A stretch of 64,000 nt of DNA from a virus, in IMG/VR virus record IMGVR_UViG_3300017917_003893, positions 64,001 to 128,000 of that record, one strand, 5' to 3'. The position numbers were made by a program, and so were the translations under genes. The notes under the pieces were generated by a model. The model was not told the origin of the DNA. It saw nothing but the letters and a program-made list of their open reading frames with translations, and did no database searches. Positions 7,574-52,085 of the stretch are shown in pieces; the first letter of the stretch is position 1, and each line of letters begins with the position of its first letter.

Positions 7574-7780
7574 ATGAGTTATCCCTTACCAAATCAAAAA
7601 TATAATCATTATAAAGGTGGTACATATGAAGTTATTTCTATGGCTACTCATACTGAAACAGGAGAAAAGTTGGTAGTTTATAAATCTATCAACTTTGGCT
7701 CTGTTTATGTTAGACCTTACGACCTGTGGTCTGAAACTTTAGAAGGCGGTCAAAAAAGATTTGAACTAATAAATGAATAA
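7574..7780 (+). CDS. DUF1653 family protein
   Basis: YNHYKGGTYEV..ATHTETGEKLVVYKS..VYVRP..RFE. Confidence 0.85.
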   Translation: MSYPLPNQKYNHYKGGTYEVISMATHTETGEKLVVYKSINFGSVYVRPYDLWSETLEGGQKRFELINE

Positions 7781-8513
7781 TATTATAAAAGATTTCAAAC
7801 AAAGAGGTGATATTATTAAAATTTATGATTGGATGAAAATTAATAAGAATCTAAATAATTTTGATAAGAAACAAGTTTCTATGAAAAATAATTCAGGCAT
7901 TGGTACTGCTTTTAATATAGATGTTACAAGCATTGTTACTAGTACACTTATCAATGAATTAAATCAAGATTTAATTAGAACTATTTTGAAATCAATGTTT
8001 AATACTCAAAATTTTGATTATTTAGATTTAAGACCAGATGGTTCTCTAATGACTGGTAGAGTTCATCTTGAGAGGTTAGTACAAATGATTTATCAAAGCG
8101 GTTATAAAAATGTTATCACAACTGGCATGATAGCTTCTGAACTTATGGATAGTGCTTACTTTTTATCCAATGGGTTTAAAAATGCTAGTATGAGTGCTAC
8201 TTCAACATTTTATAATTCAGGTAGTTTAAATGGTGTTAAAGTTTGGGTTGATCCATATATGAAATTTAACGATGGTAGATTATGTCTGTTCAATGAGGTT
8301 GATATCAACATTGAAGACGTTGACTTAGTTGAATTTATTGACCCAGTTGATGCACAGTCCACATTCAAGATTCAGTATAAATCCGACTTTATTGTAAATG
8401 ACTCTAAATTAATATTTGTAATTGAGAATGAAAACTCCGAGGCATATATTCAATATAAGTCGTTACAAAGAGATATAAAAATAGATAATATTTTAGATGG
8501 CAAATCTTTCTAA
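7773..8513 (+). CDS. Truncated major-capsid paralogue with C-terminal RDIKIDNIL peptide
   Basis: TLINELNQDL, NVITTGMIASELMD and GVKVWVDPYMKFNDGRL align with the capsid segments ILVNELSQTI, YLITNGGLAAALQD and DISIYVDPYMKYNDNRI. Confidence 0.8.
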   Translation: MNNIIKDFKQRGDIIKIYDWMKINKNLNNFDKKQVSMKNNSGIGTAFNIDVTSIVTSTLINELNQDLIRTILKSMFNTQNFDYLDLRPDGSLMTGRVHLERLVQMIYQSGYKNVITTGMIASELMDSAYFLSNGFKNASMSATSTFYNSGSLNGVKVWVDPYMKFNDGRLCLFNEVDINIEDVDLVEFIDPVDAQSTFKIQYKSDFIVNDSKLIFVIENENSEAYIQYKSLQRDIKIDNILDGKSF

Positions 8514-8715
8514 TACATTTCAAATAAATAGTACCTGTGGTTCAAGTGCTTTAACGATTGATTCTGATGGTAATACGGTTGTAAATAAGCTGGTTCTTTT
8601 GGATGAAAAAACAGGAAATAAATGGGAAGTTAAAATATCGCATGGTGAACTAGTGGTTGAGCCTTTAGAATTAGAAGATAAAAGAGAATTTAAATTAAAT
8701 AAAATATTGAAATGA
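8497..8715 (+). CDS. Small hypothetical protein ending KREFKLNKILK
   Basis: ORF overlaps both neighbours and carries the shared peptide. Confidence 0.65.
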   Translation: MANLSNTFQINSTCGSSALTIDSDGNTVVNKLVLLDEKTGNKWEVKISHGELVVEPLELEDKREFKLNKILK

Positions 8716-9257
8716 AATACACAGTCTCAGTTTATGGCTATGGAGCCGAAGTAACTATTGGTTCTGTTAATGAAGAATTAAAACAGATACTAAGTAATCC
8801 AGAAAAAGAGTTGATAGATATTGTCACTGAAGATATTGAAGATTTTGGTAGTTGGTATGAAATAGATGACCAATATCACAAATGGAGTGCCGCTGGAAAT
8901 TTTACAATTTTAGTTGAAGATGAAAATGGAAACGAAGTTTGTAAAATAGATTCAGAAAATATGCACAAACATGATACAGATAATTTTGAATTAGTAGAAT
9001 ATGATTGTATAGAAGTTGATGATTCTAAAGATTTGTTAATGTGTGTAGCCTATGAAAAAGGTTCATTTTTTGAAGGAGATATTGAAACTGATAGATTTGA
9101 AATATCAAAGTTAAAAATTAAAATAGATGGTGAGATAGGTATTGAAGAATGTTACTTTGGTGATATTATATCTGGTATCTATTATGATGATGAAGAAGTT
9201 GATAACTATGGTGGTGGTACCGATGGTAAATCATTTGAAGTTTATAAGAACTTTTAA
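8712..9257 (+). CDS. Hypothetical acidic phage protein
   Basis: 181-aa ORF coupled by atga; followed by a terminator. Confidence 0.7.
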   Translation: MKYTVSVYGYGAEVTIGSVNEELKQILSNPEKELIDIVTEDIEDFGSWYEIDDQYHKWSAAGNFTILVEDENGNEVCKIDSENMHKHDTDNFELVEYDCIEVDDSKDLLMCVAYEKGSFFEGDIETDRFEISKLKIKIDGEIGIEECYFGDIISGIYYDDEEVDNYGGGTDGKSFEVYKNF

Positions 9258-9261
9258 AAAG

Positions 9262-9292
9262 AAAAAACCTCAGAGAAATCTGAGGTTTTTTT
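9262..9292. terminator. Bidirectional intrinsic terminator
   Basis: A-run, cctcaga-gaaa-tctgagg, T-run, between convergent genes. Confidence 0.85.
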
Positions 9293-9299
9293 ATTTATT

Positions 9300-9764
9300 T
9301 TACTCTTCAGTATATATTTTAGCTGAGAACTTTGGTGACTTATAATCAACATCAGTTGTGTTTGTAACACAACTATCATCATCAGCCTCACCACTCTTTA
9401 CTATTCTCAAAGCCTCCTGCTCATTTTTTGCTTCTATGATATATTCACGATATGCTCTTACTGGATAATCAATAGTTACTATATAAGTTTCATTGCTTGA
9501 TTGACCTTCATTAGTGCCTTCTAATTCTTCAATTGCATCAATTTTATCTTCAATCTCAGCAGGACTTAAATCATCCATCTTACGAGTTACTTTATTGAAT
9601 TTATATCTTGAGTTAGCAAAATTCTTTTGATACTCATCAGAATTAGGCTTATTTTGTCTATTCATTTTCTTTAGTTCATCTTTCTCAGAATCTGCTGAGA
9701 AATCCTTAAAGTTTACTACTTTTCTATTTACATTGAATGTAGGTTGATTATCTTTATAAGTCAT
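9300..9764 (-). CDS. Hypothetical protein
   Basis: 154-aa ORF with an AATATATA motif upstream on the minus strand. Confidence 0.7.
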   Translation of the reverse strand: MTYKDNQPTFNVNRKVVNFKDFSADSEKDELKKMNRQNKPNSDEYQKNFANSRYKFNKVTRKMDDLSPAEIEDKIDAIEELEGTNEGQSSNETYIVTIDYPVRAYREYIIEAKNEQEALRIVKSGEADDDSCVTNTTDVDYKSPKFSAKIYTEE

Positions 9765-9872
9765 TTTATAGAATTACTTTTTTGTATATATTAAATTCAA
9801 TATTTCATTTATTTTATTTCAGAGACCTGGTTTTTTATATATACTTATGATGAAAACAAAAATCAAAAAGTA

Positions 9873-11219
9873 ATGTATAATAAAGACATGAGTAAGTTAA
9901 TAACACTAAATGGTAATAATGACCAAGAATTATTGAGTTCTATATTCGACAATGAAATAGTAGTATTTGAAGATGTACAAGGCTCAAAGATATGGGTTAA
10001 TTGGGATGGTAAAGAGTTTACTATAAAACCTAAATCAATGAATAGCGATCCTATAAATTTAATTGATTTGGCTATGCAAAACTATTATAATCCAGCAATT
10101 ATTTTTTTTAATTCACTTGATGTTAGAGTTAAGTCTTTATTGAATAAAAAATGGTGGTTTTGTTTTGAATATTTTCCTGATAATCAACCAGCTAATATTG
10201 AGTACTCTAGAGTTCCAAAAAATAATTTAGTTTTAATTACAGTTAATAAATCTGGAAAATATGATTTTGGTGTTGATGAACTAGATGAATATGCTAGACT
10301 TTTTGATGTGGATATGTTGCCTATTGTTTTTCAAGGTAAATTGACCGAAAGAATGATAGAGGCAATTAGATATTTTATAAACACAAGTGAAGAGGATTTA
10401 GAATATGTTTTTGGTGAAAAATCATTTGCTTTTTTCTTTTATAAAATATTGAATCCTAGTTCAAAGAATTCATTTTTAATGGAAACTGATGATTTTCAAA
10501 ACAATGTAGAAAAATTAATAGTTAGAACTGCTAAAGGTGATATTTCATTTGAAATATTAAATCCTTTATATAAAAGAATAAGTGATAATAATTCAACAGA
10601 ATTTGTTGAGATATACACTTTAATTCTAGTTAATTTCTTGAATTTCTGTCAATCATTTAACTTAGAAGAAATTAAGTTAAAGGGTGATAAAAGAGATGAG
10701 GTTTATATTTATTTAATGTCTAAGTTATTTAATGTTTATGTATCTGAGGTTAAGCAAGATTTATTAGACTTTGAATTTATAGTTCCTGAATTTTTCGACA
10801 AAGAGAAGTTTAAGATTAATATTGAATTAATACCAAATAAATTAACTAAAGACTATATTAAAGAATCAGATAAATTAGAATATATTTTCAAAGTTATTTT
10901 AGGCTCATTTAATAAAAAAAGAAAGAAGCCAATTGGTGTATTTACAGAAAATACAGTTATTCTTTTCAATGGATTTGTAACTGATATTAATAATTATATT
11001 GATAAATATTTAAATAAATTACACGAAGTTGAGTTAACAAGAGCTGGTCTTTTAGACTTTGGTGATTTCTTTGAAATTCAATATGATACAGACGGTGAAG
11101 GTGAAGTTTATCCAGATGTTTATACTGAATTTGAAAAAGGAGTTCCTTCTGATAAGAAGAAAAAAGGAAAAGGTGGTAAAATGTTACCAGTTGAAGAAAC
11201 GCCTAAATCTCCTAAATAA
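9873..11219 (+). CDS. RNA ligase-like nucleotidyltransferase-fold protein, apparently lacking the catalytic Lys
   Basis: VVFEDVQGS at the position of motif I (normally EKxDG), FCFEY (motif III), PIVFQG, and VEKLIVR (motif IV-like). Confidence 0.5.
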   Translation: MYNKDMSKLITLNGNNDQELLSSIFDNEIVVFEDVQGSKIWVNWDGKEFTIKPKSMNSDPINLIDLAMQNYYNPAIIFFNSLDVRVKSLLNKKWWFCFEYFPDNQPANIEYSRVPKNNLVLITVNKSGKYDFGVDELDEYARLFDVDMLPIVFQGKLTERMIEAIRYFINTSEEDLEYVFGEKSFAFFFYKILNPSSKNSFLMETDDFQNNVEKLIVRTAKGDISFEILNPLYKRISDNNSTEFVEIYTLILVNFLNFCQSFNLEEIKLKGDKRDEVYIYLMSKLFNVYVSEVKQDLLDFEFIVPEFFDKEKFKINIELIPNKLTKDYIKESDKLEYIFKVILGSFNKKRKKPIGVFTENTVILFNGFVTDINNYIDKYLNKLHEVELTRAGLLDFGDFFEIQYDTDGEGEVYPDVYTEFEKGVPSDKKKKGKGGKMLPVEETPKSPK

Positions 11220-11419
11220 TGAAATCTGTTAATCTTAATATAAAATCTGTCGAGGTAAAAGCAAGTGTAAGACCACTTAGAACTAAGTGGACTCGTGAAA
11301 TGGTCAATGATATACAAAGCCTTAGTGATATGGATTTAAGTTCTTTTGAGAGATATTTTACAAAAGAGTTAAGAAGAGAAAATAGGAAAAATTCTATAAA
11401 TAAAATCTTTAAAAAATAA
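11219..11419 (+). CDS. Mini-protein: gp23-family capsid fragment plus RKNSINKIF peptide
   Basis: IKSVEVKASVRPLRTKWTREMVNDI resembles the gp23-family segment IEK.TV.AKSR.LKA.[YW]T.ELAQDL. Confidence 0.6.
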   Translation: MKSVNLNIKSVEVKASVRPLRTKWTREMVNDIQSLSDMDLSSFERYFTKELRRENRKNSINKIFKK

Positions 11420-11450
11420 AAACATAGAACCGTTTTCGAGGTATAATTGT

Positions 11451-12689
11451 ATGACGGTTTCGAGTGTAGTTAAATTAAGTGATATTGAATCATACTCTTC
11501 AATTAAGAAGAGCTTAGAAAATAAAAAGTGCAGTTTACAGTTTCTTCCATTATCTATGGAGTCCTTATCCAAGGAAAAGAATTTTACCTATAAAGGTCAA
11601 AAGTTAAAGACATCATATCTTATTGATATAGTTCACAATCTTATATTAAAATACTATTTTAAGAAAGAGAATAAGTTTCATCTTATGTCTCCAATATTAA
11701 AAGAAAAGTATGGTTATTTATATAATTATTATATGGACTATCTTATTGAGAATAAGGTATTAATTTTACTATCTAAGCATCAAAAAGGTAAAAGTTCAAG
11801 AGTATATGCTATTAATGAGTTTATATTAAGAGGTACTATAATTCGATATAATAATTTTGACAAAGTTTTATTAAAAAAATACAAGAGTAAAGTTTCTCAA
11901 CTTAAAGAAGAAACTAAGTTTGAAAATTTACTGATTGATAATGATATTAAAATCAAACTTGTTGACGATTTGTTCAAGATTCAAATAGAATTTGATAGGT
12001 CTATATTCTATTTAGATTCACTAAAAGGAGATGATGTTGATATTTACAATAGAAATAAATATTCCGTTGAGTGTATAAATGATAAACACATATTCTATCA
12101 CTTTGATAACTATGGTAGAATGCACACAAACTTTACTATCCTAAAGTCTTTCATCAGAAAGAACTGTTTACTTATAAATGGTGAAGAAACACATGAGATT
12201 GATATTAAAAATAGTCAACCTTTGTTCTTAGCAAAGTTAATTAAGGATTCTGGAACTAAGTGGGTCAATGAAGATGAGTTTGAATTATTCAAAGACTTAA
12301 CGCTTAGTGGTAAGTATTACAACTACTTTATGGATTCTTGTGGTATTTCTGATAGAAATACTGCTAAAGAGTATACATATAAAGTTCTTTTTGGTAGAAA
12401 TGGTTCAAATAGTAAAGCAGATAAAATGTTTATTAAATTATTTCCCACTATACACAATTTTATCAAATTATATAAAAAAGAAAATGGTGATTATAAAGTT
12501 CTTGCCTATGAGTTACAGAAATCAGAAAGTAATCTTATATTTAACAAGATAATTAGACAAATTATGACATTATATCCTGAAATTAATTTAGTAACTGTAC
12601 ACGATAGTATAATTGTTCAAAGGTCTTATAAAGACTCTGTTTGGGCTATATTTCAGACTAAACTTTATGAAGAGTTTGGACTTATTTAA
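11451..12689 (+). CDS. Family-A (PolA/T7-type) polymerase-fold protein with no exonuclease domain
   Basis: GRMHT, motif A EIDIKNSQP, motif B R..AKEYTYKVLFG, LQKSES and motif C VTVHDSI. Confidence 0.7.
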   Translation: MTVSSVVKLSDIESYSSIKKSLENKKCSLQFLPLSMESLSKEKNFTYKGQKLKTSYLIDIVHNLILKYYFKKENKFHLMSPILKEKYGYLYNYYMDYLIENKVLILLSKHQKGKSSRVYAINEFILRGTIIRYNNFDKVLLKKYKSKVSQLKEETKFENLLIDNDIKIKLVDDLFKIQIEFDRSIFYLDSLKGDDVDIYNRNKYSVECINDKHIFYHFDNYGRMHTNFTILKSFIRKNCLLINGEETHEIDIKNSQPLFLAKLIKDSGTKWVNEDEFELFKDLTLSGKYYNYFMDSCGISDRNTAKEYTYKVLFGRNGSNSKADKMFIKLFPTIHNFIKLYKKENGDYKVLAYELQKSESNLIFNKIIRQIMTLYPEINLVTVHDSIIVQRSYKDSVWAIFQTKLYEEFGLI

Positions 12690-12713
12690 GAATAAATTTA
12701 AAATATATAAGAT

Positions 12714-12866
12714 ATGAAAATGTTCTATTTAACCGTTAACGGAAACAAGAAAGATGTTATATCTAAGGTCATGACAGAGACATTAGAACAAGCAGTTGTT
12801 TACTTCTCGGAAATTAAAAATCTGTCAATTGATGCTCTACTAAAAATCTATACCATTACTGAATAA
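12714..12866 (+). CDS. Small hypothetical protein (50 aa, not in ORF track)
   Basis: MKMFYLTVNGNKKD...IYTITE*; AATATATA directly upstream. Confidence 0.6.
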   Translation: MKMFYLTVNGNKKDVISKVMTETLEQAVVYFSEIKNLSIDALLKIYTITE

Positions 12867-12894
12867 GTGTTGTATATTTTTAATATATACAATT

Positions 12895-13434
12895 ATGATT
12901 GGATTAGAACATCAAAATGCAACCTTCATCTTACTATCTTCAAAAAGACTTGAAGATATGATTTCTATACTTTATGCTAAAGAATATACAGTTGTGCCAA
13001 TAAAGGGTTACTACAGAGGTCAGTTTGAAGACTCTGTTATGGCTTATGGTATGGTTGATAATGATACTTTAAGAAAAGATGTACTTTTTCTACTTAATCA
13101 TTTTGATGAAGAGTGTGCTATAATAAAATATCAAGGAGAATCTAATGCTAAAAAGATATTTAAAGATGGTTCTGAAAAACCACTTGGTATAGTTATGTAC
13201 AATACAGATGCTGACAATATGTCTTATCTATACAATGGTACTTCATTCTCATTCGTAGAGTCTAAGAGATATTGGAAGCCAACTAAGAAAGAAGATTTTA
13301 GAGTAGGTATGTTAGTTGAATACTTCAACAATAATAAATGGTATGAAAAACTTGTTGAGAATCCTAACGATGAATATGAAAAACTTTATAAGTTACTTAT
13401 AAAGTATGATAAAGTTAGAGTTGCTTCTAAATAA
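12895..13434 (+). CDS. Hypothetical protein
   Basis: 179-aa ORF behind AATATATA. Confidence 0.7.
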   Translation: MIGLEHQNATFILLSSKRLEDMISILYAKEYTVVPIKGYYRGQFEDSVMAYGMVDNDTLRKDVLFLLNHFDEECAIIKYQGESNAKKIFKDGSEKPLGIVMYNTDADNMSYLYNGTSFSFVESKRYWKPTKKEDFRVGMLVEYFNNNKWYEKLVENPNDEYEKLYKLLIKYDKVRVASK

Positions 13435-14221
13435 TTTCAAACCAATTTATTATTTTATGCCAATTTGGTGTTTCTTTTAAGAAGTATCTCATATCATTTG
13501 GACAATTTATTACATTCAATCCGTTTTCAGTTTTTTGAACATTTCTCATCATAATAATCTTATTTGATTTAATATAAGGAGAAGTTATAACATTTATTCC
13601 GTTAATATTTCCAGTTACAACACCGTTATTACTAGACACAATCATTCCATTAGATAATAGAAGATATTTATAAGCATCTAAACCAACTATAATTGTATTA
13701 GCTGGTCCGGTTCTACCTGATGATGCTATTAAGCTACTAACCATCATTATTCTAGTTATCACTCTTCTCGATAAAGCTATTTCGTTTTCAGAATCTGTTA
13801 AGTTAGAATCTTTTTGATAAATAACATTTAGATTTTGAGGAACACCCATTGGGTTTGATGTTAGTGTCTCTAATGTTTTCATAATATCTGTATAGATATC
13901 TGTTAAATCTAAATAGGTTTTACCTTGAACATTAATAGAATTTATTTTAGGAGAAATAACTGACATATAACCTTCATTATCCAAAGGGTTTGAAAATGTT
14001 TCTCTGTTCTTGAACTCTTCTACTTTACCATCAACGATAGCGTCAATAGCAAGATCTCTATTCTTTCTTTTTAATTCTCTTTGATATTCTTCGTTTGGTT
14101 CTTCAATCCAATCCATATATGTCATTACAACTTGAGGTAAAGAAGGTTTGGTAGATTCTACATAATTACAGATAGCAATTAAGTCATTATTAGAAATTAT
14201 CATATTTATTCTTCCATCCAA
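13427..14221 (-). CDS. Internally deleted major-capsid paralogue with RDLAIDAIV peptide
   Basis: YMSVISPKINSINV matches capsid YAGVIGPKISSKSV. LSRRVITRIMMVSSLIASSGRTGPANTII matches VQRKLITKIAHASNFIATEGRVGPAQYLI. Confidence 0.8.
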   Translation of the reverse strand: MDGRINMIISNNDLIAICNYVESTKPSLPQVVMTYMDWIEEPNEEYQRELKRKNRDLAIDAIVDGKVEEFKNRETFSNPLDNEGYMSVISPKINSINVQGKTYLDLTDIYTDIMKTLETLTSNPMGVPQNLNVIYQKDSNLTDSENEIALSRRVITRIMMVSSLIASSGRTGPANTIIVGLDAYKYLLLSNGMIVSSNNGVVTGNINGINVITSPYIKSNKIIMMRNVQKTENGLNVINCPNDMRYFLKETPNWHKIINWFEII

Positions 14222-14951: not shown

Positions 14952-14995
14952 TAATGAATATTATTTTTTATTTATATTAAATATAATGAGTTTGT

Positions 14996-15610
14996 TTATA
15001 CTATATATGTTTTCCATTTATCATCTAATTCATCAAAATCAAACTGATATTTAAACATCTCAAAATCATCTTCCCAATAGCTATTTATATCGTGATTCCA
15101 TAGTAAGCACTTTTTAAGAGGATCTTTACCTCCATACTTTCTTTTAAACCAATTGTATGGATTATTTGGAATATTACATTCAATATTATTAAATGTGTGT
15201 CTTTTTAGAGGATATATCTCTTTTTCGGTTAGCTCTGATAGTCTACCATATGTTTCATCTTCAGTTCTTTCTAGAAAGAATATATCCACTCTTGGTTTGT
15301 AAATACTATACTCACCCTCATGTACTCTATATAATCTAGCATCAACATTAGAAAACGTCACATTAAGATTCATGTCTATGTTAAGAAAGTTTTCCAATTC
15401 ACTCCAAGGTATACATATGTCTATATCATCATCCCAAGGTATAAATCCGCCGTGTCTTATAGATCCAATTAGTGTTCCATATCCTAACCAGTATGTTATA
15501 TTGTTTTTTTCTAACTCATATATTAAGTCTTTGAGTATTCTCAAAGACTCTCTTTGTCTATTCACTAAATCAAAATCACATATTTCCTCAAGTTTAGTAT
15601 TTATGTTCAT
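14996..15610 (-). CDS. licD: LicD-family (fukutin-like) phosphotransferase
   Basis: YWLGYGTLIGSIRHGGFIPWDDDIDI. Confidence 0.9.
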   Translation of the reverse strand: MNINTKLEEICDFDLVNRQRESLRILKDLIYELEKNNITYWLGYGTLIGSIRHGGFIPWDDDIDICIPWSELENFLNIDMNLNVTFSNVDARLYRVHEGEYSIYKPRVDIFFLERTEDETYGRLSELTEKEIYPLKRHTFNNIECNIPNNPYNWFKRKYGGKDPLKKCLLWNHDINSYWEDDFEMFKYQFDFDELDDKWKTYIV

Positions 15611-19160: not shown

Positions 19161-19562
19161 ATGAGAAAAAAGATAGGAAGAACTGAAATTATATCATTAC
19201 CTGATTTTGGAATATTCGGGTTATCAGCAAAAGTTGACACCGGGGCCTATGGTGTAGCTTTACATGTTGATACTATAAAAATAGATAATGATAAGCTTTA
19301 CTTTACTATTGATAATAAAGAGTTTATATATGACAAGTTTAAAATGGTGTCCGTTAAAAGTTCTTTTGGTAAAGTTCAAAAAAGATTTTCTATTATGACT
19401 AAAATATTAATCGGTGACAAGATATATAAATTTTATGTATCTTTGACCAATAGAAAGAACATGAGATATCCTATTCTAATAGGTAGAAGATTTTTGTATA
19501 AATTTGACTATTTAGTAGATGTTAAGAAAAAGAATATAAATGATACAGTTAAAAAGATGTAA
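19161..19562 (+). CDS. RimK-associated retropepsin-like putative protease (DUF785-type)
   Basis: Motifs IGRTE, AKVDTGA and LTNRKNMRYPILIGRRFL. Confidence 0.8.
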   Translation: MRKKIGRTEIISLPDFGIFGLSAKVDTGAYGVALHVDTIKIDNDKLYFTIDNKEFIYDKFKMVSVKSSFGKVQKRFSIMTKILIGDKIYKFYVSLTNRKNMRYPILIGRRFLYKFDYLVDVKKKNINDTVKKM

Positions 19563-20079
19563 TTATATTACGGGTGATCCAAATGAATTAGGATTTGCTG
19601 TTTCTGATATCGTTAAGTTTCTTGAAACTGATGGTAGAAATGCTCTATTGTTTACTCCACCAAGAGCTACAACTGAAGATAAAAAAGGAGTTTCTACATC
19701 TATAAAATATATTTTTAGTAATCAATTCACTTTTGATAATTTTAATCAGTTTTCAGAGATAATTGCCAATAGGTCTAATTTATTTAGAGTTGATTTATTA
19801 GTCTTTGATTTTTATCACCTTTCTCCTTGGCAAATTTCTGATTATAAGAAATTAATAGATGAATTAAATATAGACCATATTATAATAGCCAAAGAATATC
19901 ATTACAAAACTTCTGATGATGTTAATGATTTTCGTGTTAGAAGAGAATACAAAGACCTAAATAAAAGTGAAACTCACATAACTGATAATATAAATAAGTG
20001 GACTTCTACACTTAAATCTTTATCTGTATCTTATATAAGAGATAAAAAAATCGACAATATATTTGGTAGTGATGAATAG
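19540..20079 (+). CDS. Degenerate P-loop/RecA-fold-like protein ending IRDKKIDNIF
   Basis: Remnant ITGDP and VDLLVFD segments; carries the shared peptide. Confidence 0.55.
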   Translation: MIQLKRCNYITGDPNELGFAVSDIVKFLETDGRNALLFTPPRATTEDKKGVSTSIKYIFSNQFTFDNFNQFSEIIANRSNLFRVDLLVFDFYHLSPWQISDYKKLIDELNIDHIIIAKEYHYKTSDDVNDFRVRREYKDLNKSETHITDNINKWTSTLKSLSVSYIRDKKIDNIFGSDE

Positions 20080-21859: not shown

Positions 21860-22333
21860 ATGTTAGAAATGAAAGGTATATTAGAATTTGACCCAGTTAA
21901 CGTAACTAGGAAGCACTTAGCACAGTCTTCTTGGAAGAGAACTGCTATGGTTCGTTTTGATTGTGACCTTTGGGCATACTACGCTTGGTTTATTGAAAGA
22001 CGATTCAACTTAAAGTTAAATAAACCTTTAAGAGGAACTCACTTGACTGTCATCAATGATAGATTTGAAAGTGATGAGCTTTACGCACAAGCCCGTCAAT
22101 TATTTCACGGTAAAGAAATTACTGTAAAATATGATCCTACTCTTATTCGTGCTAATAATAAAGGTCACTGGTGGATAAATGCGGATAGTGATGATGCTAG
22201 AAATATCAGAAGTGTTATTGGATTAGATCCTAATCCTTACTTTGGCTACCACATCACTATTGGTTTGGCTACTCACTTACAATTAGAACACTCTAAATAC
22301 ATCTTAGACCAATGTATAAGATTCAATCTTTAA
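21860..22333 (+). CDS. 2H phosphoesterase superfamily protein
   Basis: Two HxT motifs, HLTVI and HITIG, about 70 aa apart. Confidence 0.75.
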   Translation: MLEMKGILEFDPVNVTRKHLAQSSWKRTAMVRFDCDLWAYYAWFIERRFNLKLNKPLRGTHLTVINDRFESDELYAQARQLFHGKEITVKYDPTLIRANNKGHWWINADSDDARNIRSVIGLDPNPYFGYHITIGLATHLQLEHSKYILDQCIRFNL

Positions 22334-22803
22334 TAGACCATATTGAGAAAGTATATGGATTTGAAATTGTCCCTTGTTCAATACCAAGGGGCAATTTTCA
22401 ATATTTTAAAAGATATATCTACCTATTTATACTTCATAAAGTAAGTGAAAAGTTATTTTACTTTTTAAGAGATAAAGTCTCACCTATTAAATATTTAGAT
22501 GAAAGACCGGATAAAGAACTTTGGTTTCGTAAAAGAAACTCAGAGGGTAGAGTATCTATTGAAGTTGAAATAAGACCAGTTCCTGTTGAAGCTTGTATTT
22601 ATTTAAGTCATGATTCTGGTTTATTTAAGACTATGGATGAAAACTATAAAGTTAAAATATATTGTCAACTTAGTGATGTTGAACATATATCATTTCCATT
22701 AAATCACATCAACGGTAATGAACAGATTGATTATTACTTTTCTAAAATTAATGAACTTAAAGAAGAGTTGAGAAATTATAAATTAAATAATATTTTAAAG
22801 TGA
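22312..22803 (+). CDS. Hypothetical protein ending LRNYKLNNILK
   Basis: ORF carrying the shared peptide. Confidence 0.65.
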   Translation: MYKIQSLIDHIEKVYGFEIVPCSIPRGNFQYFKRYIYLFILHKVSEKLFYFLRDKVSPIKYLDERPDKELWFRKRNSEGRVSIEVEIRPVPVEACIYLSHDSGLFKTMDENYKVKIYCQLSDVEHISFPLNHINGNEQIDYYFSKINELKEELRNYKLNNILK

Positions 22804-24251: not shown

Positions 24252-24734
24252 GTGTTTGATTTAAATTTTAATACTATACATGGTGATGATAAAACTGGTA
24301 GAACTAGATTTCTACTAGAGTTATCGTCTATTTTAAAATCATATGGTTTTAAAATATTCTTTTTAGGATGTACAAGTGAATTTGAAAACGCAAAAAGAAG
24401 TGGTGATTTATCTTCTTTTGATGACTTTAGAATAATATCAACAAGTGATGATTTTAATAATCTAAAAATAATTGAAGTTATAAATGAAATAACTGATACA
24501 AAAAGTTATGATTATCTAATAGTAGATGATATTGATTATTTATCAGATAACTGTATAAATTCAATAATTAAAACAAAAGTTAAAAAAGTTATTACTTGTT
24601 TAAGTGATAATAAAAAAAGATTACCAGAAAGTTCAACATTTTATAATATCACTGATATTAAAGATATGACTAAGATTAATGATTATATTAAAACTTTAGT
24701 CAGAGACCAAAAAATTAATTCTATACTTAAATGA
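24252..24734 (+). CDS. Small P-loop-like protein ending VRDQKINSILK
   Basis: Walker A-like GDDKTGRT and Walker B-like YLIVDD; carries the shared peptide. Confidence 0.6.
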   Translation: MFDLNFNTIHGDDKTGRTRFLLELSSILKSYGFKIFFLGCTSEFENAKRSGDLSSFDDFRIISTSDDFNNLKIIEVINEITDTKSYDYLIVDDIDYLSDNCINSIIKTKVKKVITCLSDNKKRLPESSTFYNITDIKDMTKINDYIKTLVRDQKINSILK

Positions 24735-31814: not shown

Positions 31815-33482
31815 ATGTCTCTAAAAAAAGATCTTGCTAAATATAAGCCCCGTAAAGAACAAAGAGAAGCTCTCGATTTTATAGAAAGTGAGTATCTAAA
31901 GAATAAAATGAACAAGTTTTTTTTATTAAATCTTCCAGTTGGAAGTGGAAAATCACACTTAGCATTAATGATTGCTGACTGGTATAAAAAGAATGTTAAT
32001 AAAACTGCAAAAGTAGATATAATCACTAATAGTAAAATATTACAAGACCAGTATTCTGGTACTTATGAGTCAATTAGTGATTTAAAGGGAAAAGAAAATT
32101 ACGAATGTGAACAATATTCTTGTTCTTGTGCTCAAGGTGCTGAGTTTAATAGATTAAATAAAACATCTTGTGAAAGTTGTCCTTATACCTATGCTAAGGA
32201 GTCTTTTATTAGTGGTGGTATTTCTTTAACTAACTTTTATCTTTATATACTTTATGCTATCTATAATCAAAAACTACTTGAGAGTAGAGATTCTAGAGTT
32301 TTAATAGTTGATGAGGCTCATGAGTTTGATGATGTAATGTCTGACTTTATTACTATTAAAATAACTGAAGGTATAGTGAAGAAGTATAAATTTTCAAATG
32401 AGTATGAGATAATGAAACAGTTAAAATCTGTTACAACAATATCTCAGTACGTTGATTTTTTAAGATTTCTTAACGGTGAAGTTATATCTACAATTGAAGA
32501 TATGGAGAAAGGTTTGTCTAAATCACCAAGAAATGTTAGACAAGACAAACGTGATTTAAAAATTAATAAAATTATTGGTGGTAAAAACTCAGATGTTAAG
32601 ACAATGCAGTTAGCAACCGATTTAAGACAATTACAATTAAAGATTGAAGTTTTTTTAAAAGAGTATAAAGATAATCCAAACAACTGGGTTCTTGAGTCTT
32701 CCTATAATGAAAAGGCTAAACAAAAAGAGCTATCACTTGAGCCAATATGGGCATATGATTACTTAGATAAATATGTATTTAGTAACTATGATATGGTTAT
32801 AATGATGTCGGGTACTATTTTAGATAAAAATCTATTTTGTCAGTTAAATGGCTTAGATGTTACTAAAGCAGTTTACTATTCAATAAGAAGTCCTTTCTCA
32901 TTAAAGAATAGACCTATTTACTATATGCCACTTGGTAAGATGTCCTATAAGTCAAAAGACGAGACATTTAAGAGATATATTCCTTACATAAAAAAACTAC
33001 TTGATAAGTATAAAAATAAGAAAGGTATAATACATACTAACTCTTTTGAACTAGCTAAATGGATTCAAGAATCAATTAAAGATCCAAGATTAATTTTTCA
33101 TGATTCTCAGAATAAAGATGAGATGTTAAAGATGCATAAAGATTCGGAAGAGCCAACAGTAATAGTTAGTCCTTCTATGGACACTGGAGTTTCATTTGAT
33201 AATGATGATGCTAGATTTCAAATAATAGCTAAAGTTCCTTATCCAAGTTTAGCATCTCAGAAAAATAAACTTAGACAGTCTAATAATCCTGATTGGTATT
33301 CTTGGAAAACAGTTGCTGGTTTAGTTCAAATGACTGGTAGACCTGTTAGATCTGAAATTGACTATGCTGATACTATTATACTAGATGGTTCTTTTGGTGA
33401 TGTTATTAAACATAGTTCACAATTTATTCCAGATTGGATTCAAGAGGCTATTAAAAAAGTTAATGTTAAAATTGAGGCATAA
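31815..33482 (+). CDS. DinG/Rad3-like SF2 helicase
   Basis: Q motif, PVGSGKS, Cys cluster, DEAH, MSGT, GVSF, KVPYP and QMTGRPVR. Confidence 0.88.
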   Translation: MSLKKDLAKYKPRKEQREALDFIESEYLKNKMNKFFLLNLPVGSGKSHLALMIADWYKKNVNKTAKVDIITNSKILQDQYSGTYESISDLKGKENYECEQYSCSCAQGAEFNRLNKTSCESCPYTYAKESFISGGISLTNFYLYILYAIYNQKLLESRDSRVLIVDEAHEFDDVMSDFITIKITEGIVKKYKFSNEYEIMKQLKSVTTISQYVDFLRFLNGEVISTIEDMEKGLSKSPRNVRQDKRDLKINKIIGGKNSDVKTMQLATDLRQLQLKIEVFLKEYKDNPNNWVLESSYNEKAKQKELSLEPIWAYDYLDKYVFSNYDMVIMMSGTILDKNLFCQLNGLDVTKAVYYSIRSPFSLKNRPIYYMPLGKMSYKSKDETFKRYIPYIKKLLDKYKNKKGIIHTNSFELAKWIQESIKDPRLIFHDSQNKDEMLKMHKDSEEPTVIVSPSMDTGVSFDNDDARFQIIAKVPYPSLASQKNKLRQSNNPDWYSWKTVAGLVQMTGRPVRSEIDYADTIILDGSFGDVIKHSSQFIPDWIQEAIKKVNVKIEA

Positions 33483-35053: not shown

Positions 35054-36385
35054 ATGACTCCTCAACTGGAAAAAGTATTCTTTAATTTTGTTCTTAGAAA
35101 TAAGAAGTACTTTGATATTGTAAAGCCTTACTTTTTCAGAAATTCTGAAATTCAATTTGTTTATGGTGTCATAAGAGAGTACATGAATAAAGGTACAGAT
35201 GCTCAAATACCTTCACCTAGACAAATTTTAGATATGGTCACTCTTGAAGATAAAGAGGGTATTATTACAAAAGAAATATTAAAATCTATATTACAAGTCG
35301 ACTTAAAAGAGTATGATGAGAAAAACTTTATTGAGCCAAAATTCAATGCTTGGGTTCTTTCAAATCGACTAAAAACAGGAACTGTTGATATTATAGATGA
35401 AACTAGAAATTTAGATACTATTTCTGATTTTGAAAAGGCTATAGAGACCGCTGATAGAATTAAAAGTATTGTAGACGAAATGTCTTCAACTAATTTTGTT
35501 CAAGATGATGATATGGGTTCTGACTTTGATGACCCTGAGATGCACGTTCAAGATTCTTCTAAATTTAAAGTTAAATGTGGATTTGACTCGATTGACCATA
35601 TGTTAGGTGGTGGTTGGGATATATCTACATTAAATGTGATAATGGCTGAAACTAATAACGGTAAGTCATTATGGATGCAAAACTTTGCTGTTAAGTCTGC
35701 TAATATGGGTCATAACGTTCTTTATATAACACTTGAAATGAGTGAAAGAAAAGTTATGAAGAGATTAGGTGCTATGCGTTTAAGAATTCCAATTAACGAT
35801 TATGATGTTATGTCAAAAGACGTTGATATGATTAAGAACAAAATATCTAATTTAAGTAAAACCGAAGGTAGTGCTGATCTTTTTGATAGAAAGGTCGGTA
35901 AAATAATAACTAAGTTTTGGGCGGCAGGTACTGCCACTATTTCGGATTTTGATTATTATATTCAAAAACTAAAAGAGAAAAAAGATATAAAAATTGATAT
36001 GGTTATTGTTGACTATATCACATTAGTTGCTGCTGGAAAAGGTACAGCGGCTGATAATCTTTACACAAAAGGAAAACATTTAGCTGAGGGTTTAAGAGCC
36101 TTAGGTGCTAAGTATAAATGTCCAGTTTTAACTGGTGTTCAAGTTGCTAAGGATGCTTGGAACTCATCTGATATAACATTAGAAAGTGTTCCTGAATCTA
36201 AAGCTATAGCAGAAACTGCTGACACATTTTTTGCTATAATAAGAACTGAGGAAATGAAAAGGCAAAATATTTATAGATTTAAACTTCTAAAACAAAGAGA
36301 TGGAGATTTTTTGAAATCTCAGATTAGACTTAATTTGAATCCTACATATTTGACTTTAGAAAACGATCAGTTTATAGACCAATAA
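35054..36385 (+). CDS. Replicative DnaB-like helicase (gp41-like)
   Basis: Motifs AETNNGKS, YITLEMSE, IVDYI, TGVQ, ESKAIAETAD and LKQRDG. Confidence 0.92.
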   Translation: MTPQLEKVFFNFVLRNKKYFDIVKPYFFRNSEIQFVYGVIREYMNKGTDAQIPSPRQILDMVTLEDKEGIITKEILKSILQVDLKEYDEKNFIEPKFNAWVLSNRLKTGTVDIIDETRNLDTISDFEKAIETADRIKSIVDEMSSTNFVQDDDMGSDFDDPEMHVQDSSKFKVKCGFDSIDHMLGGGWDISTLNVIMAETNNGKSLWMQNFAVKSANMGHNVLYITLEMSERKVMKRLGAMRLRIPINDYDVMSKDVDMIKNKISNLSKTEGSADLFDRKVGKIITKFWAAGTATISDFDYYIQKLKEKKDIKIDMVIVDYITLVAAGKGTAADNLYTKGKHLAEGLRALGAKYKCPVLTGVQVAKDAWNSSDITLESVPESKAIAETADTFFAIIRTEEMKRQNIYRFKLLKQRDGDFLKSQIRLNLNPTYLTLENDQFIDQ

Positions 36386-41500: not shown

Positions 41501-42952
41501 ATGTCAAAATTTAACACAACAATGCCAAAGGCAAAAACTCTTACTGAAAACCTAGCAGGTGGTCAAGCTTACTCTCAATCAAATGAGTTAGCTTTAGTTT
41601 CTCTTCTTTTAACATCTTTTGTTAATGATCAGTTCTATAGGAATGCTCAAACGACTCTTGATGAATTGAGAAGCCTTATCACTAAGGTTAAAGATAAAGA
41701 ATTTGTTGCTAAGGCGGCTATATTTGCTCGTGACCGTTTTGGTATGAGAAGTATTACTCATGCTCTTGCTGGTGAATTAACTTCACAACTATCGGGTGCG
41801 GAGTGGGGTAAAAACTTCTACGACAAAGTAGTTGTTCGTGTTGATGATATGACTGAAATCATGTCATACTACTTGGCTTATAAGACATCTAAAGATAGTC
41901 CTAAGTTTCCAAACTCTTTGAAGAAGGGTTTTGCTAAGGCTTTTGATAAGTTTGATGGTTATCAACTTGCTAAGTACAAAGGTGATAACAAAGAAGTTAA
42001 ACTTGTTGACCTTGTTAACATTGTTCACCCAGTTCCAACTGAAAGAAACAAATCTGCTCTTGAGTCACTTGTTAAAGGTGAACTAAAGAACACTCAAACT
42101 TGGGAAGCTAAACTTTCACAAGCAGGGCAAATGGCTGAATCTGAAGAAGATTTGGCTCAACTGAAGGCTGATGCTTGGCAAGAACTTATCTCTACAAGAA
42201 AGATTGGTTACTTTGCTCTTCTTAGAAACTTGAGAAATATCATCACTCAATCACCATCTGCTGTTAAGTCAGCATGTGAGTTGTTAGTTGATGAGAGAAT
42301 GATTAAGAATTCAAGAGTTCTTCCATTCCGTTTCTCAACTGCATATGAAGAAATCTCTAAGTTAGGTTCTTCTAAAGAAGTTCGTGATGTTCTTGTTGCT
42401 ATTAACCAAGCATTGGATATCTCAGTATGTAACGTTCCTAAGTTTGACGGTGAAACACTTGTTGTTATGGACGTTTCTGGTTCAATGAGTGGTAAACCAT
42501 CTGAGATTGCTTCTTTGTTTGGTGCTATTTTAGCTAAAGTTAATAACTGTGATGTTATGACTTTCTCTACTGATGCTCAATATAAGCAATACAATCCAAT
42601 GGATTCAGTGTTGACTATTAGAGGTTCTTTTAGATACTCTGGTGGTGGTACAAACTTTAAGTCTATCTTTCAGAAGGCTAACAAAAAGTATGACAGAGTA
42701 ATTATCTTGTCAGATATGCAAGGTTGGATGGGGTACACTACACCATCTTCTGAGTTTGCTCAGTACAAAAAGAAATACAATGCTAATCCATTTGTATATT
42801 CTTGGGACCTTGCTGGATTGGGTACTTTACAGTTCCCAGAACAAAATGTCTTTGCTTTGGCTGGCTTCAGTGATAAAGTATTTGACATCATGAAAATGAT
42901 GGAGTTAGACAAGAAGGCTCTTTACAATGAGATTAAAGCTATACAGCTTTAA
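41501..42952 (+). CDS. rsr: Ro60/TROVE domain RNA-binding protein with vWA domain
   Basis: NLAGGQAY, DQFY, FARDRFGMRS, YQLAKY, TWE, ALLRNLRNI, LPFRF, MIDAS motif DVSGSM, GGTN and ILSDMQ. Confidence 0.93.
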   Translation: MSKFNTTMPKAKTLTENLAGGQAYSQSNELALVSLLLTSFVNDQFYRNAQTTLDELRSLITKVKDKEFVAKAAIFARDRFGMRSITHALAGELTSQLSGAEWGKNFYDKVVVRVDDMTEIMSYYLAYKTSKDSPKFPNSLKKGFAKAFDKFDGYQLAKYKGDNKEVKLVDLVNIVHPVPTERNKSALESLVKGELKNTQTWEAKLSQAGQMAESEEDLAQLKADAWQELISTRKIGYFALLRNLRNIITQSPSAVKSACELLVDERMIKNSRVLPFRFSTAYEEISKLGSSKEVRDVLVAINQALDISVCNVPKFDGETLVVMDVSGSMSGKPSEIASLFGAILAKVNNCDVMTFSTDAQYKQYNPMDSVLTIRGSFRYSGGGTNFKSIFQKANKKYDRVIILSDMQGWMGYTTPSSEFAQYKKKYNANPFVYSWDLAGLGTLQFPEQNVFALAGFSDKVFDIMKMMELDKKALYNEIKAIQL

Positions 42953-44606: not shown

Positions 44607-44668
44607 TTTCTTGGTTATATTTTATGTATATATTATTTATATGAAGGTCATGTTGTCTAATATATACT

Positions 44669-45397: not shown

Positions 45398-45413
45398 AAA
45401 ATAAACAATAAAA

Positions 45414-45815: not shown

Positions 45816-45852
45816 TATCTTTAGAAGAAAAACACCAGTTGTTAAAATATTT

Positions 45853-45884
45853 AAAAAGTCTGATAATAATTATCAGACTTTTTT
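45853..45884. terminator. Terminator
   Basis: aaaaagtctgataat-a-attatcagactttt. Confidence 0.7.
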
Positions 45885-45936
45885 ATTAATAGTTGGTCTT
45901 GTTTTTTTAATATATACAAAAAAAGATTAAGACTAA

Positions 45937-47547: not shown

Positions 47548-47550
47548 TAT

Positions 47551-49071: not shown

Positions 49072-49089
49072 AAATTTTATATATACAAT

Positions 49090-50646: not shown

Positions 50647-51330
50647 TTAATCCTCTATCTTTTCAAACCACCAGTTAAAGTAAATAAAGTTGTCATTTAT
50701 TAGATTGTAATAATCAGACTCATGTTTTATTATTATCTTGTTTTCATGAGACCTTACTAATTCAACTTCAATTCCTTTTTCCATTCTTAATTGTTTACCA
50801 GTTTCTGTTGAATAACAAGTAATTTCATCATTTAACAATCTATACTTACCTGGTTCGGGTTTTAACCAAGTTTTAATTGTTTTTATAATAATACCTTTTA
50901 TTTTAACAACCCATTCCTTTGTTTGATATAAATCATAGTCTTTGAATACTTCTGAGGTTAATTCTGGACTTAAACTTGTTATGTTTTCAACAACTCCCCA
51001 ATATTCATAGTCATCAATAACAAAAGTTATATAAACATCATAGTTAATATTATTTGATTTAACTATTCTAAGAATCTTCATTTTTTGTACATCTTGATGT
51101 TCTAATGCTAATTTACTTTTAAGATTTCTATAAGCACTTGTTCCTGATAAGTTATACAATATGTCATTGATTCTAGACATTGCTTGTCTTAAAGCATCTT
51201 GATTTTTATCAAATGCGTTTGTTGATAATTGTGGATCATCAACATGTACAGATGCTTGTGCTGAATCAGGATTCATTCTTTGAAGATTGAATTCTGTGAA
51301 TTCTAGAATTAGTCTATTTCTACCTTTCAT
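50647..51330 (-). CDS. Hypothetical protein
   Basis: 227-aa ORF; shares a palindromic AATATATATATT (51336-51347) with the divergent gene. Confidence 0.7.
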   Translation of the reverse strand: MKGRNRLILEFTEFNLQRMNPDSAQASVHVDDPQLSTNAFDKNQDALRQAMSRINDILYNLSGTSAYRNLKSKLALEHQDVQKMKILRIVKSNNINYDVYITFVIDDYEYWGVVENITSLSPELTSEVFKDYDLYQTKEWVVKIKGIIIKTIKTWLKPEPGKYRLLNDEITCYSTETGKQLRMEKGIEVELVRSHENKIIIKHESDYYNLINDNFIYFNWWFEKIED

Positions 51331-51367
51331 AATTAAATATATATATTAAAATACCAAACTATTAATT

Positions 51368-51685
51368 ATGAAAATAAGAAGATTTAATGAAGATGAACAA
51401 GTAGATATTTCATCTGAAAGAGTTAATGAAATTATAGAAGAGTTAAAAGACTTCTCAGCTATTATGAGTGATAAGTCAAAATATGTAGATGCTTTATTAA
51501 ATGAACTTAATAATTATAAGAGTGATTCCACTAAAGGAAATGACCAAATAGATGATTCTATAGCGGCTTTGCAAATTGTAAAAAAAGATGCTGATGATTG
51601 TAATGATAAGATTGATACAATTGTTAATAATCTTTTAGATTATAATGATAGTGGTAGAAAGTATATGTATACTGAAAACAAGTAA
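51368..51685 (+). CDS. Coiled-coil putative internal protein
   Basis: N-terminus MKIRRFNE. Confidence 0.65.
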   Translation: MKIRRFNEDEQVDISSERVNEIIEELKDFSAIMSDKSKYVDALLNELNNYKSDSTKGNDQIDDSIAALQIVKKDADDCNDKIDTIVNNLLDYNDSGRKYMYTENK

Positions 51686-51706
51686 TCAAATTTACTGTAT
51701 AATCTT

Positions 51707-51841
51707 ATGTCTGTTTGGGAAAATATACCTCTCATTGATAGAGAATCTATAAAAAAATCTTTGTATAGATTGAATAGAATTCAAAGTAGGAAAAATAAAA
51801 TTAATAGTATATTTAATGAAGTTAGGAAAGAAGTCAAGTAA
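51707..51841 (+). CDS. 44-aa mini-protein carrying SRKNKINSIF (not in ORF track)
   Basis: MSVWENIPLIDRESIKKSLYRLNRIQSRKNKINSIFNEVRKEVK*. Confidence 0.55.
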   Translation: MSVWENIPLIDRESIKKSLYRLNRIQSRKNKINSIFNEVRKEVK

Positions 51842-52085
51842 TTTAGAACCTGGTTATGTTTTTGCTCCTTATATTCCAGTGACTTCATCACAAGTAATAG
51901 TTGATTACAGTTCTTCTAAAAGAGTTAACAGAAAAAGAAAGATTAATAACATATTTGATTTGGGTTTAGATATTAAAGATTATGATATATTCTCACCAAG
52001 TAAATCAATTATGAGTAGATATTCTAAAAAGATTATAAATGCTAATTATTACGGAACTATAGAAATAAAAAAACCCACTTATTAA
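51816..52085 (+). CDS. Mini-protein: gp23-family C-terminal fragment with RKRKINNIF peptide inserted
   Basis: EPGYVFAPYIP and FSPSKSIMSRYSKK..YYGTIEIK match the capsid segments PGIIFVPY and FAPRMLLRSRY..YMTIKVK. Confidence 0.7.
   Translation: MKLGKKSSNLEPGYVFAPYIPVTSSQVIVDYSSSKRVNRKRKINNIFDLGLDIKDYDIFSPSKSIMSRYSKKIINANYYGTIEIKKPTY

What the first reader, a model, noticed from the sequence alone, without database searches (positions are those of the whole stretch)
7773..52085. Four scattered pieces of the major capsid protein, each joined to the same short peptide: candidate capsid-decoy system
Seen in sequence: 7773..8513, 11219..11419, 13427..14221 and 51816..52085 each align to a different, partly overlapping part of gp23-type capsid protein. 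Each also carries an R-x-x-[KSA]-I-[DN]-x-I-[LFV] peptide that the real capsid lacks (RDIKIDNIL, RKNSINKIF, RDLAIDAIV, RKRKINNIF). None lies in the head operon and none can form a full HK97 fold. Established: capsid proteins trigger host defences such as CapRel-SJ46 and Lit. Inference: these are baits that titrate capsid-sensing immune proteins or poison a co-infecting phage's head assembly, with the peptide recruiting a common partner. I do not know of a described system like this.
Basis: partly seen in the sequence, partly recalled or inferred. Interest (0 to 1): 0.92.

Follow-up and report, generated by a model that had tools for sequence, protein, structure and literature searches.

The report
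Tagged capsid mimics in a megaphage
A giant phage of Bacteroidota keeps four small genes that copy parts of capsid proteins, two of its own type and two of another phage lineage's type, each fused to a short helix that about a tenth of its proteins carry; this points to an undescribed bait-and-handle system whose targets are untested.

Summary
All four ORFs are capsid-derived and carry the peptide, but three corrections apply. (1) The peptide is a genome-wide protein tag, on 114 of about 1,000 ORFs in a complete relative against 0.7 by chance; it is not capsid-specific. (2) A (7773) and C (13427) are not pieces. They model as compact, near-complete HK97 folds (Z 13-15) of the phage's own capsid type and are under purifying selection (dN/dS about 0.2). 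A is deleted in close relatives, and a complete, more distant relative lacks both. (3) B (11219) and D (51816) resemble the capsid of another lineage (Immutovirus-type), not the phage's own (D profile 32-38 versus 7 bits). Relatives also tag pieces of protease, scaffold, portal and sheath, and a 735-kb sister phage does so with an unrelated tag. Best reading (33%): tagged baits that catch host sensors of unassembled virion proteins. Rivals: poisoning a competitor's assembly (22%), own-head accessory proteins (18%). A headless phage ClpC-ClpP is a candidate tag reader, by co-occurrence only. No binding was tested. The scan noted similar tagged pieces in other genomes; my literature searches found no description.

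The parts
950..2623 (+). True major capsid protein (557 aa), Mahaphage type, behind a late-type TTATATATA box
   Evidence: Pfam Gp23 97 bits; 73% identical to LR745206 and 72% to LR756502 capsids; promoter box
7773..8513 (+). ORF A, 246 aa: compact HK97 core of own type (short E-loop hairpin, spine helix, A- and P-domain) plus C-terminal tag helix; in the NADAR/Dam operon, no late box
   Evidence: hhalign 99.4% to own capsid 289-557; Z 13.1 over 201 aa to T4 gp23; dN/dS 0.14-0.23; cleanly absent at the syntenic site in L083, L084, G009
8469..8495 (+). Tag of A (aa 233-241)
   Evidence: R233, K236, I237 invariant in 72 sequences; block 221-240 is the most conserved of the protein, 0.89; helix 223-241 in the model
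9831..9844 (+). Late-type box ahead of the 448-aa gene to which B is coupled (TAATG overlap)
   Evidence: in G009 the same box sits directly before B
11219..11419 (+). ORF B, 66 aa: P-domain strand plus spine helix of a foreign, Immutovirus-type capsid, ending in the tag (aa 56-64, 11384-11410)
   Evidence: Pfam over cut-off; family profile 45-57 bits on Immutovirus-type capsids versus 12 on own; 87 of 87 long hits are foreign-type; tree 100/100
13427..14221 (-). ORF C, 264 aa (probably 258 from the ATG at 14203): HK97 core of own type with the tag helix at the E-loop tip in place of the insertion domain; last gene of a glycosyltransferase operon
   Evidence: Z 15.2, 198 aa to T4 gp24 and Z 14.9, 210 aa to gp23; dN/dS 0.14-0.25; R55 and D60 invariant
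14033..14059 (-). Tag of C (aa 55-63), internal, between the two E-loop strands
   Evidence: helix 44-64 between strands 30-41 and 88-102
14969..14998 (-). Middle-type box (AAAC, spacer, TATAA) ahead of the operon that ends in C
   Evidence: class inferred from the same box before replication genes
51816..52085 (+). ORF D, 89 aa: the C-terminal P-domain strands of a foreign, Immutovirus-type capsid with the tag (aa 39-47, 51930-51956) inserted in the hairpin loop
   Evidence: 335 relatives; 120 of 120 tagged, foreign diagnostic motifs in 103-106 and own in 0, profile 32-38 versus 7 bits; dN/dS 0.32-0.81
51707..51841 (+). 44-aa tagged ORF overlapping the start of D; source of its N-terminal part not identified
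8497..8715 (+). Non-capsid tagged protein, 72 aa, next to A
   Evidence: dN/dS 0.19-0.29; no family
19540..20079 (+). Non-capsid protein with C-terminal tag (179 aa)
   Evidence: no Pfam
22312..22803 (+). Non-capsid protein with C-terminal tag (163 aa)
24252..24734 (+). Non-capsid protein with C-terminal tag (160 aa, weak AAA-like hit)
54252..54680 (-). Non-capsid protein with C-terminal tag (142 aa)

Best explanation
The phage runs a bait-and-handle library. A portable amphipathic helix, R-[DENK]-x-K-[IL]-x-x-I-[LF], is fused to about a tenth of its proteins and docks on one common partner. The four capsid-derived genes put capsid-shaped surfaces on that handle: two monomer-sized HK97 cores of the phage's own type (A, C) and two peptides of a widespread foreign type (B, D). 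They catch host proteins that recognise unassembled capsid subunits, chiefly immune sensors, and hand them to the handle reader for sequestration or destruction before the sensor oligomerises. The best candidate reader is the phage's own ClpC lacking its N-domain, with ClpP. Shown: capsid origin, folds (predicted), selection, tag statistics, promoter context, tag swap.
For: The tag is protein-level (codon use follows the genome; 41 of 165 tags have no close downstream gene). It is mobile in position: C-terminal in A and B, loop-inserted in C, D and the N-arm pieces. It is the most conserved block of A and D. Other tagged pieces copy prohead protease (48% id), scaffold repeats (59%), and weakly portal and DNA polymerase motifs. 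LR756501 has 89 proteins with an unrelated DPYGEE tag, among them pieces of protease, portal, capsid, sheath, scaffold and a foreign-type capsid piece, so the pairing of virion pieces with a genome-wide tag exists with two tags. Capsid, portal and DNA polymerase are among the ligands of Avs sensors, and Avs7, 8 and 10 bind the A-domain of an MCP monomer by fold complementarity (10.64898/2026.01.04.697583); A and C keep that core. A is dispensable, and complete LR756504 lacks A and C. Tag-bearing genomes encode ClpS and a ClpC without Clp_N, and the three complete ones also 2-3 ClpP; the DPYGEE genome has no ClpP or ClpS and a Clp ATPase with N-domain. Flanks: 14 tags in 396 ORFs versus 0 in 596.
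Against: A folded capsid core should activate such sensors rather than block them unless it is removed fast. Baits for the phage's own capsid should track its own sequence, and B and D do not. B drifts: dN/dS 0.16-0.85, about 2 in three close pairs on few changes. The Clp link rests on one complete-genome contrast and is confounded by clade. Most tagged proteins match nothing known, so an adaptor role for the tag is itself inferred. A later check of a similar finding in another genome priced the mimicry claim at 13 in 100 (e1-4035658).
Confidence: 0.33

Rival explanations
1. Anti-competitor weapons. B and D, and the E-type pieces of relatives, bind folding or unassembled capsid subunits of co-infecting Immutovirus-type phages by fragment complementation, and the tag routes the complex to degradation or blocks assembly. 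A and C do the same against kin or are a separate story.
For: B, D and E match Immutovirus-type capsids far better than the phage's own. D's capsid parts are conserved at 0.86-0.89 against 0.72-0.74 for its linkers. B is more conserved where it equals the foreign consensus (0.61 versus 0.43). Both lineages infect Bacteroidota (PMC7162821; TAnnTTTG boxes). The scaffold of these foreign phages ends in a helix with the same R-x-x-K-L-x-x-I register. LR756501 also holds a foreign-type piece.
Against: Shared hosts are not shown. B and probably D sit behind late-type boxes, which is late for exclusion. It does not explain own-type pieces of protease, scaffold, portal and sheath. For B an ancestral state kept from an older capsid cannot be excluded without a root (cyanophage capsid scores 52 bits); D is specifically Immutovirus-type.
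Confidence: 0.22
2. Accessory proteins of the phage's own head. A and C are minor shell or vertex-type paralogues like short gp24 proteins. C displays the tag outside the shell at the E-loop tip, and the small pieces tune assembly, as T4 Inh does for the protease.
For: Near-complete HK97 folds, with gp24 the top structural hit of C; short gp24 proteins of about 300 aa among the hits of A; A lies 5 kb downstream of the capsid gene in many relatives; dN/dS like the capsid's own; untagged A-like and C-like paralogues in LR756500; C was found wherever its flanking genes were fetched.
Against: A is deleted in close relatives, and both are missing from complete LR756504. Neither has a late box, whereas 115 of 166 leader-bearing genes lie in operons with one. 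A relatives fall to 30-47% identity where capsids stay above 73%. Foreign-type B and D are unexplained.
Confidence: 0.18
3. Passengers of tag-driven gene birth. The tag gives any fused fragment solubility, location or timed turnover, so captured scraps of abundant genes persist under selection on the tag, with little capsid-specific function.
For: The tag is the most conserved part of A and D. B and D have high dN/dS in some pairs. Only 31 of 114 tagged LR745206 genes have a homologue in G009 and 8 in LR756504.
Against: A and C keep a whole fold under dN/dS about 0.2. D keeps its capsid strands at 0.86-0.89 across 120 clusters. The recognisable pieces come mostly from virion proteins, in two tag systems.
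Confidence: 0.15
4. A or C builds an encapsulin-like mini-shell and the tag is its cargo-loading peptide; or the tag is a second capsid-packaging signal for proteins injected at the next infection.
For: A and C have the size and fold of encapsulins. The tag resembles scaffold C-terminal helices of other phages.
Against: LR756504 has the tag but neither A nor C. The phage already has a separate late class with a T4-like N-terminal leader that never overlaps the tag (0 of 114, p 5e-6). C-terminally tagged genes have no TAATATATA box directly upstream (0 of 164).
Confidence: 0.09
5. Pseudogene debris of the capsid gene.
For: Low identity to the capsid; scattered positions.
Against: Intact frames of constant length in hundreds of relatives, purifying selection, conserved synteny, in-frame tag insertion.
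Confidence: 0.02

Closest known systems
T4 gp23 / vertex protein gp24 (Pfam PF07068, HK97 fold; PDB 1yue, 7vrt)
   Same: Origin and fold: A and C superpose at Z 13-15 over about 200 residues; gp24 is also a diverged capsid paralogue near gp23.
   Different: Dispensable, no late promoter box, no insertion domain, and fused to a tag shared with about 100 unrelated proteins; B and D are 66-89 aa peptides of a foreign capsid type.
DSAD1, inhibitor of the tail-tube sensor DSR2 (PMC11087589, abstract)
   Same: A phage protein that counters a sensor of a virion protein.
   Different: From my own knowledge it occupies the sensor and is not a tagged copy of the trigger; it is one protein against one sensor, with no common handle.
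Capsid-sensing defences Avs7/8/10 (10.64898/2026.01.04.697583), CapRel-SJ46, Lit/Gol
   Same: Define the plausible targets: monomeric HK97 core, A-domain interface, N-arm peptide.
   Different: These are host sensors; no tagged capsid-derived decoy is described in the passages read. None of the four window ORFs holds the Gol-equivalent N-arm segment (relatives' N pieces do).
SPO1 Gp53, phage adaptor-like protein of ClpCP (PMC6873191)
   Same: Phage redirection of ClpCP through an adaptor, a model for the proposed handle reader.
   Different: One protein acting on host ClpC; here about 100 proteins share one helix and the phage encodes its own N-domain-less ClpC. No binding shown.
Satellite assembly-interference proteins (P4 Sid, SaPI CpmB, PLE TcaP; own knowledge)
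   Same: Small proteins that bind another phage's capsid subunits and divert assembly, as rival 1 proposes for B and D.
   Different: They are scaffold-like proteins of satellites, not copies of the target capsid, and carry no shared tag.
T4 capsid targeting sequence of internal proteins
   Same: A short address label on many unrelated phage proteins.
   Different: N-terminal and late; this phage has such a class separately, and it excludes the tag.

Membership tests
Gp23 major capsid protein (PF07068) | Sequence match to the family profile | tested here: met
   All four match; only B passes the curated cut-off
Gp23 major capsid protein (PF07068) | HK97 fold with P-domain, A-domain, spine helix and E-loop | tested here: met
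   For A and C by predicted model; B and D are too short
Gp23 major capsid protein (PF07068) | Full-length gene beside protease/scaffold under a late promoter | tested here: not met
   That gene is 950-2623
gp24-type vertex protein | Diverged HK97 paralogue near the capsid gene | tested here: met
   A 5 kb and C 11 kb downstream; C's top hit is gp24
gp24-type vertex protein | Kept in all close relatives | tested here: not met
   A deleted in L083, L084, G009; A and C absent from LR756504. C was present wherever its neighbourhood was fetched in the near clade.
gp24-type vertex protein | Late transcription | tested here: not met
   No late box for the operons of A and C; motif-based, no RNA data
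gp24-type vertex protein | Pentamer at capsid vertices | not testable with these tools
T4 CTS-bearing internal proteins | N-terminal targeting leader, late gene | tested here: not met
   Tag and leader are mutually exclusive; promoter classes differ
Sensor decoys / anti-defence proteins (DSAD1-like) | Binds a defence sensor without activating it | not testable with these tools
   Needs co-expression or binding assay
ClpCP adaptors (MecA, Gp53) | Binds ClpC and delivers substrates | tested here: inconclusive
   Co-occurrence only; binding not testable
Family 1/2 encapsulins | Self-assembling HK97 shell with cargo-loading peptide | tested here: inconclusive
   Fold matches at Z 10-11, below T4 capsid proteins; tag persists in a genome without A and C
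Gol peptide (Lit trigger) | N-arm segment of gp23 | tested here: not met
   Window ORFs map to Pfam positions 132-335; N-arm pieces occur only in relatives

The most novel reading that the evidence does not exclude
Megaphages carry a programmable targeted-removal system: one docking helix on about 100 proteins couples variable baits to a phage-encoded headless ClpC-ClpP. The baits include self-type capsid cores that soak up host pattern sensors and captured pieces of a rival lineage's capsid that sabotage its assembly.
Probability: 0.15. Interest if true: 0.95.

Novelty: categorically new. Interest (0 to 1): 0.8.

Why it matters
Core virion proteins cannot easily mutate away from pattern sensors, so how large phages avoid capsid-triggered abortive infection is an open question. 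These genes are small, cloneable candidates that can be tested against known sensors. The foreign-type pieces offer a direct test of lytic phage-versus-phage interference through copied capsid segments. The tag itself groups about a tenth of a 630-kb phage's unknown proteins under one handle, so finding its reader would assign a common mechanism to about 100 orphan genes per genome. Two unrelated tags in sister phages suggest a general design.

Tried and rejected
DNA-level or translation-initiation origin of the tag: rejected (19 in-frame versus 6 out-of-frame matches). Tag specific to capsid pieces: rejected. Pseudogenes: rejected. Longer fused forms of B: none found by word search (weak); the profile search found capsids instead. 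Stand-alone Clp_N domain as tag reader: none in four tag-bearing genomes. A or C as universal tag reader: LR756504 has tags without them. PADLOC: no hit for A or C. ESM Atlas for the 72-aa tagged neighbour: nothing at 0.9. Ten literature searches found no description of either tag or of tagged capsid pieces; the library omits most subscription papers. Portal and polymerase pieces in the RxxKI clade are weak matches (E 0.048, 0.01, 5) and are leads only. Promoter classes are motif-based, and 72 of 164 tagged genes could not be classed.
Full report
Setting. The window is 64001-128000 of a 143-kb virus record. Its capsid gene (950-2623) is 72-73% identical to those of the complete 635- and 642-kb genomes LR745206 and LR756502. 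Al-Shayeb et al. place their genomes over 634 kb in the Mahaphage clade with predicted Bacteroidetes hosts (PMC7162821); I take these accessions to be those genomes by their sizes. TAnnTTTG boxes before early genes fit such a host (box identity from my own knowledge).

The observation. ORFs A (7773-8513), B (11219-11419), C (13427-14221, minus) and D (51816-52085) all match Pfam Gp23 and are the only extra matches in the record. The peptides are as quoted. But the same motif is on 19 or more proteins of the record, 13 near the C-terminus, against 0.9 and 0.04 in shuffles. It is C-terminal on 37 of 464 ORFs in G009 and on 114 of 998 in LR745206 against 0.7. The modal position is 10 residues from the end. 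Synonymous codon use follows the genome, apart from a mild A-rich excess near the stop, and a quarter of the tags have no close downstream gene, so selection is on the peptide. Tagged genes never overlap the second class, which starts with a T4-like capsid-targeting leader (0 of 114, p 5e-6). That class has the late box TAATATATA directly upstream (68 of 166 versus 0 of 164), while tagged genes favour the host-type box (26 versus 8). A short R-K subtype (median 62 aa) is the exception: 11 late-type against 1 early. B and D belong to it.

A and C are small whole folds. A has 92 relatives, most of 242-264 aa, with R233, K236 and I237 invariant in the 72 aligned. Its model (pLDDT 85) matches T4 gp23 105-521 at Z 13.1 over 201 residues, with the tag on an added C-terminal helix. 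C (pLDDT 83) matches gp24 at Z 15.2 over 198 residues and gp23 99-519 at Z 14.9. Its tag helix lies between the two E-loop strands, where the true capsid has its insertion domain. Both score best on the phage's own capsid lineage (72 versus at most 20 bits; 35-46 versus 1-14). Both are under purifying selection (dN/dS 0.14-0.25). A is cleanly deleted in close relatives L083 and L084 and absent at the syntenic site in G009. Complete LR756504 lacks both. Neither operon has a late box. Untagged paralogues exist in LR756500, so the cores may predate the tag.

B and D copy a foreign capsid. The best phage-database hits of a B homologue and of D are the capsids of Flavobacterium phage immuto, Mel-JY01, LR756508 and LR756511, not the own lineage. 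The B profile scores 45-57 bits on these and 12 on the own capsid. Among the top 150 hits in 1.8 billion representatives, 63 are short proteins (48 tagged by a strict pattern; a few may be cut ends) and all 87 longer ones are foreign-type capsids. A 59-column tree puts B on the foreign side of a 100/100 branch, unrooted. D has 335 relatives; of the best 120, all are tagged, 103-106 carry foreign diagnostic motifs and none the own ones, and the profile scores 32-38 bits against 7. In D the tag is inserted in frame into the loop between two capsid-derived segments, which are conserved at 0.86-0.89 against 0.72-0.74 for the linkers. B is looser (dN/dS 0.16-0.85), though more conserved where it equals the foreign consensus (0.61 versus 0.43, rho 0.35, p 0.016, with ascertainment bias). 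For D horizontal capture is the simplest reading; for B ancestral retention is not excluded.

The pattern is wider than capsid. Relatives add tagged N-arm, spine-helix, A-domain-helix and insertion-domain pieces, a prohead-protease segment around its conserved motif and scaffold repeats, and weaker portal and DNA polymerase motifs. The 735-kb LR756501 has only 2 such tags but 89 proteins with DPYGEE, including pieces of protease, portal, capsid, sheath, scaffold and one foreign-type capsid piece. Immutovirus has neither tag nor pieces.

Mechanism. Shown: origin, predicted folds, selection, tag statistics, tag swap, dispensability. Inferred: that the tag docks on one partner and that the pieces bind what capsid subunits bind. 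Avs7, 8 and 10 recognise the A-domain interface of an MCP monomer by fold, and related sensors read portal, tail proteins and DNA polymerase (10.64898/2026.01.04.697583). That list overlaps the tagged pieces, and A and C keep the recognised core. A bare core should trigger such a sensor, so a decoy needs a disposal route, which the tag could supply. A genome comparison gave one candidate. LR745206, LR756502 and LR756504 encode ClpS, two or three ClpP and a Clp ATPase without the Clp_N domain; in the near clade it is a ClpC with an acidic leader instead. G009 has the ClpC and ClpS, with no ClpP in its partial record. LR756501 has no ClpP or ClpS and an N-domain-bearing ATPase. Tags occur in the flanks of the near, mostly headless ClpC loci and not of the distant ones (14 of 396 versus 0 of 596), but this follows clade. 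A second lead is the likeness of the tag to the C-terminal helix of Immutovirus-type scaffolds.

Verdict. The feature is real, conserved and, in the literature I could search, undescribed. It needs three corrections: a genome-wide tag, whole small folds for A and C, and foreign origin for B and D. Odds: sensor bait 0.33, competitor poison 0.22, own-head accessory 0.18, passenger 0.15, shell or packaging signal 0.09, debris 0.02; the first two are not exclusive. The scan has noted tagged capsid pieces in several other genomes, and one later check priced mimicry at 13 in 100, which I weighed. The foreign origin of B and D did not appear in the notes I saw.

Noticed in passing
window 41501-42952 (+): Phage-encoded Ro60/TROVE protein (Pfam TROVE E 7e-19), conserved in G009.
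   Followed up: no
window 5457-6023 (+): NADAR-domain protein (real start probably near 5505) in the operon of A, with a Dam-type methylase; a possible counter to DNA ADP-ribosylation defences.
   Followed up: no
whole record, G009, LR745206: About 10% of genes start with a T4 CTS-like leader and carry a TAATATATA late box; the class excludes the tag.
   Followed up: partly
L115:12157-14292 (G009) and L344-L375: ClpC without Clp_N domain, with an acidic leader; at least 28 such proteins in viral contigs.
   Followed up: partly
G000 C1 44979-45263 (outside window): Phage ClpS, present in tag-bearing genomes and absent from LR756501.
   Followed up: partly
LR756501 (W03): Second genome-wide tag DPYGEE on 89 proteins, including virion-protein pieces.
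   Followed up: partly
L189:373-1614 (Flavobacterium phage immuto26A_204): Annotated as DNA polymerase phi-like, but position and ending suggest the head scaffold; its last ten residues share the tag's register.
   Followed up: partly
G000 C1 132934-133098; G009 146518-146682; LR745206 83154-83393: Tiny tagged ORFs resembling family B DNA polymerase motifs B and A; the LR745206 one also holds a ribonucleotide reductase-like stretch. Weak matches.
   Followed up: partly
window 31815-33482 (+): 555-aa helicase-like protein with an internal tag at residue 246, kept at the same position in G009 and LR745206.
   Followed up: no
window 9873-11219 and 11451-12689: Two conserved genes without family flanking B; the 412-aa one has dN/dS 0.05-0.11 and is B's most constant neighbour.
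   Followed up: no
LR745206, LR756502, LR756501, LR756504, G009: Two to three stand-alone UVR-motif proteins per genome besides ClpC, possible ClpC partners.
   Followed up: no
G000 C1 59824-60264 and G009 35436-35870: Tagged 144-146 aa protein beside the portal gene with a weak match to the prohead protease in both genomes (E 0.015, 0.035).
   Followed up: no
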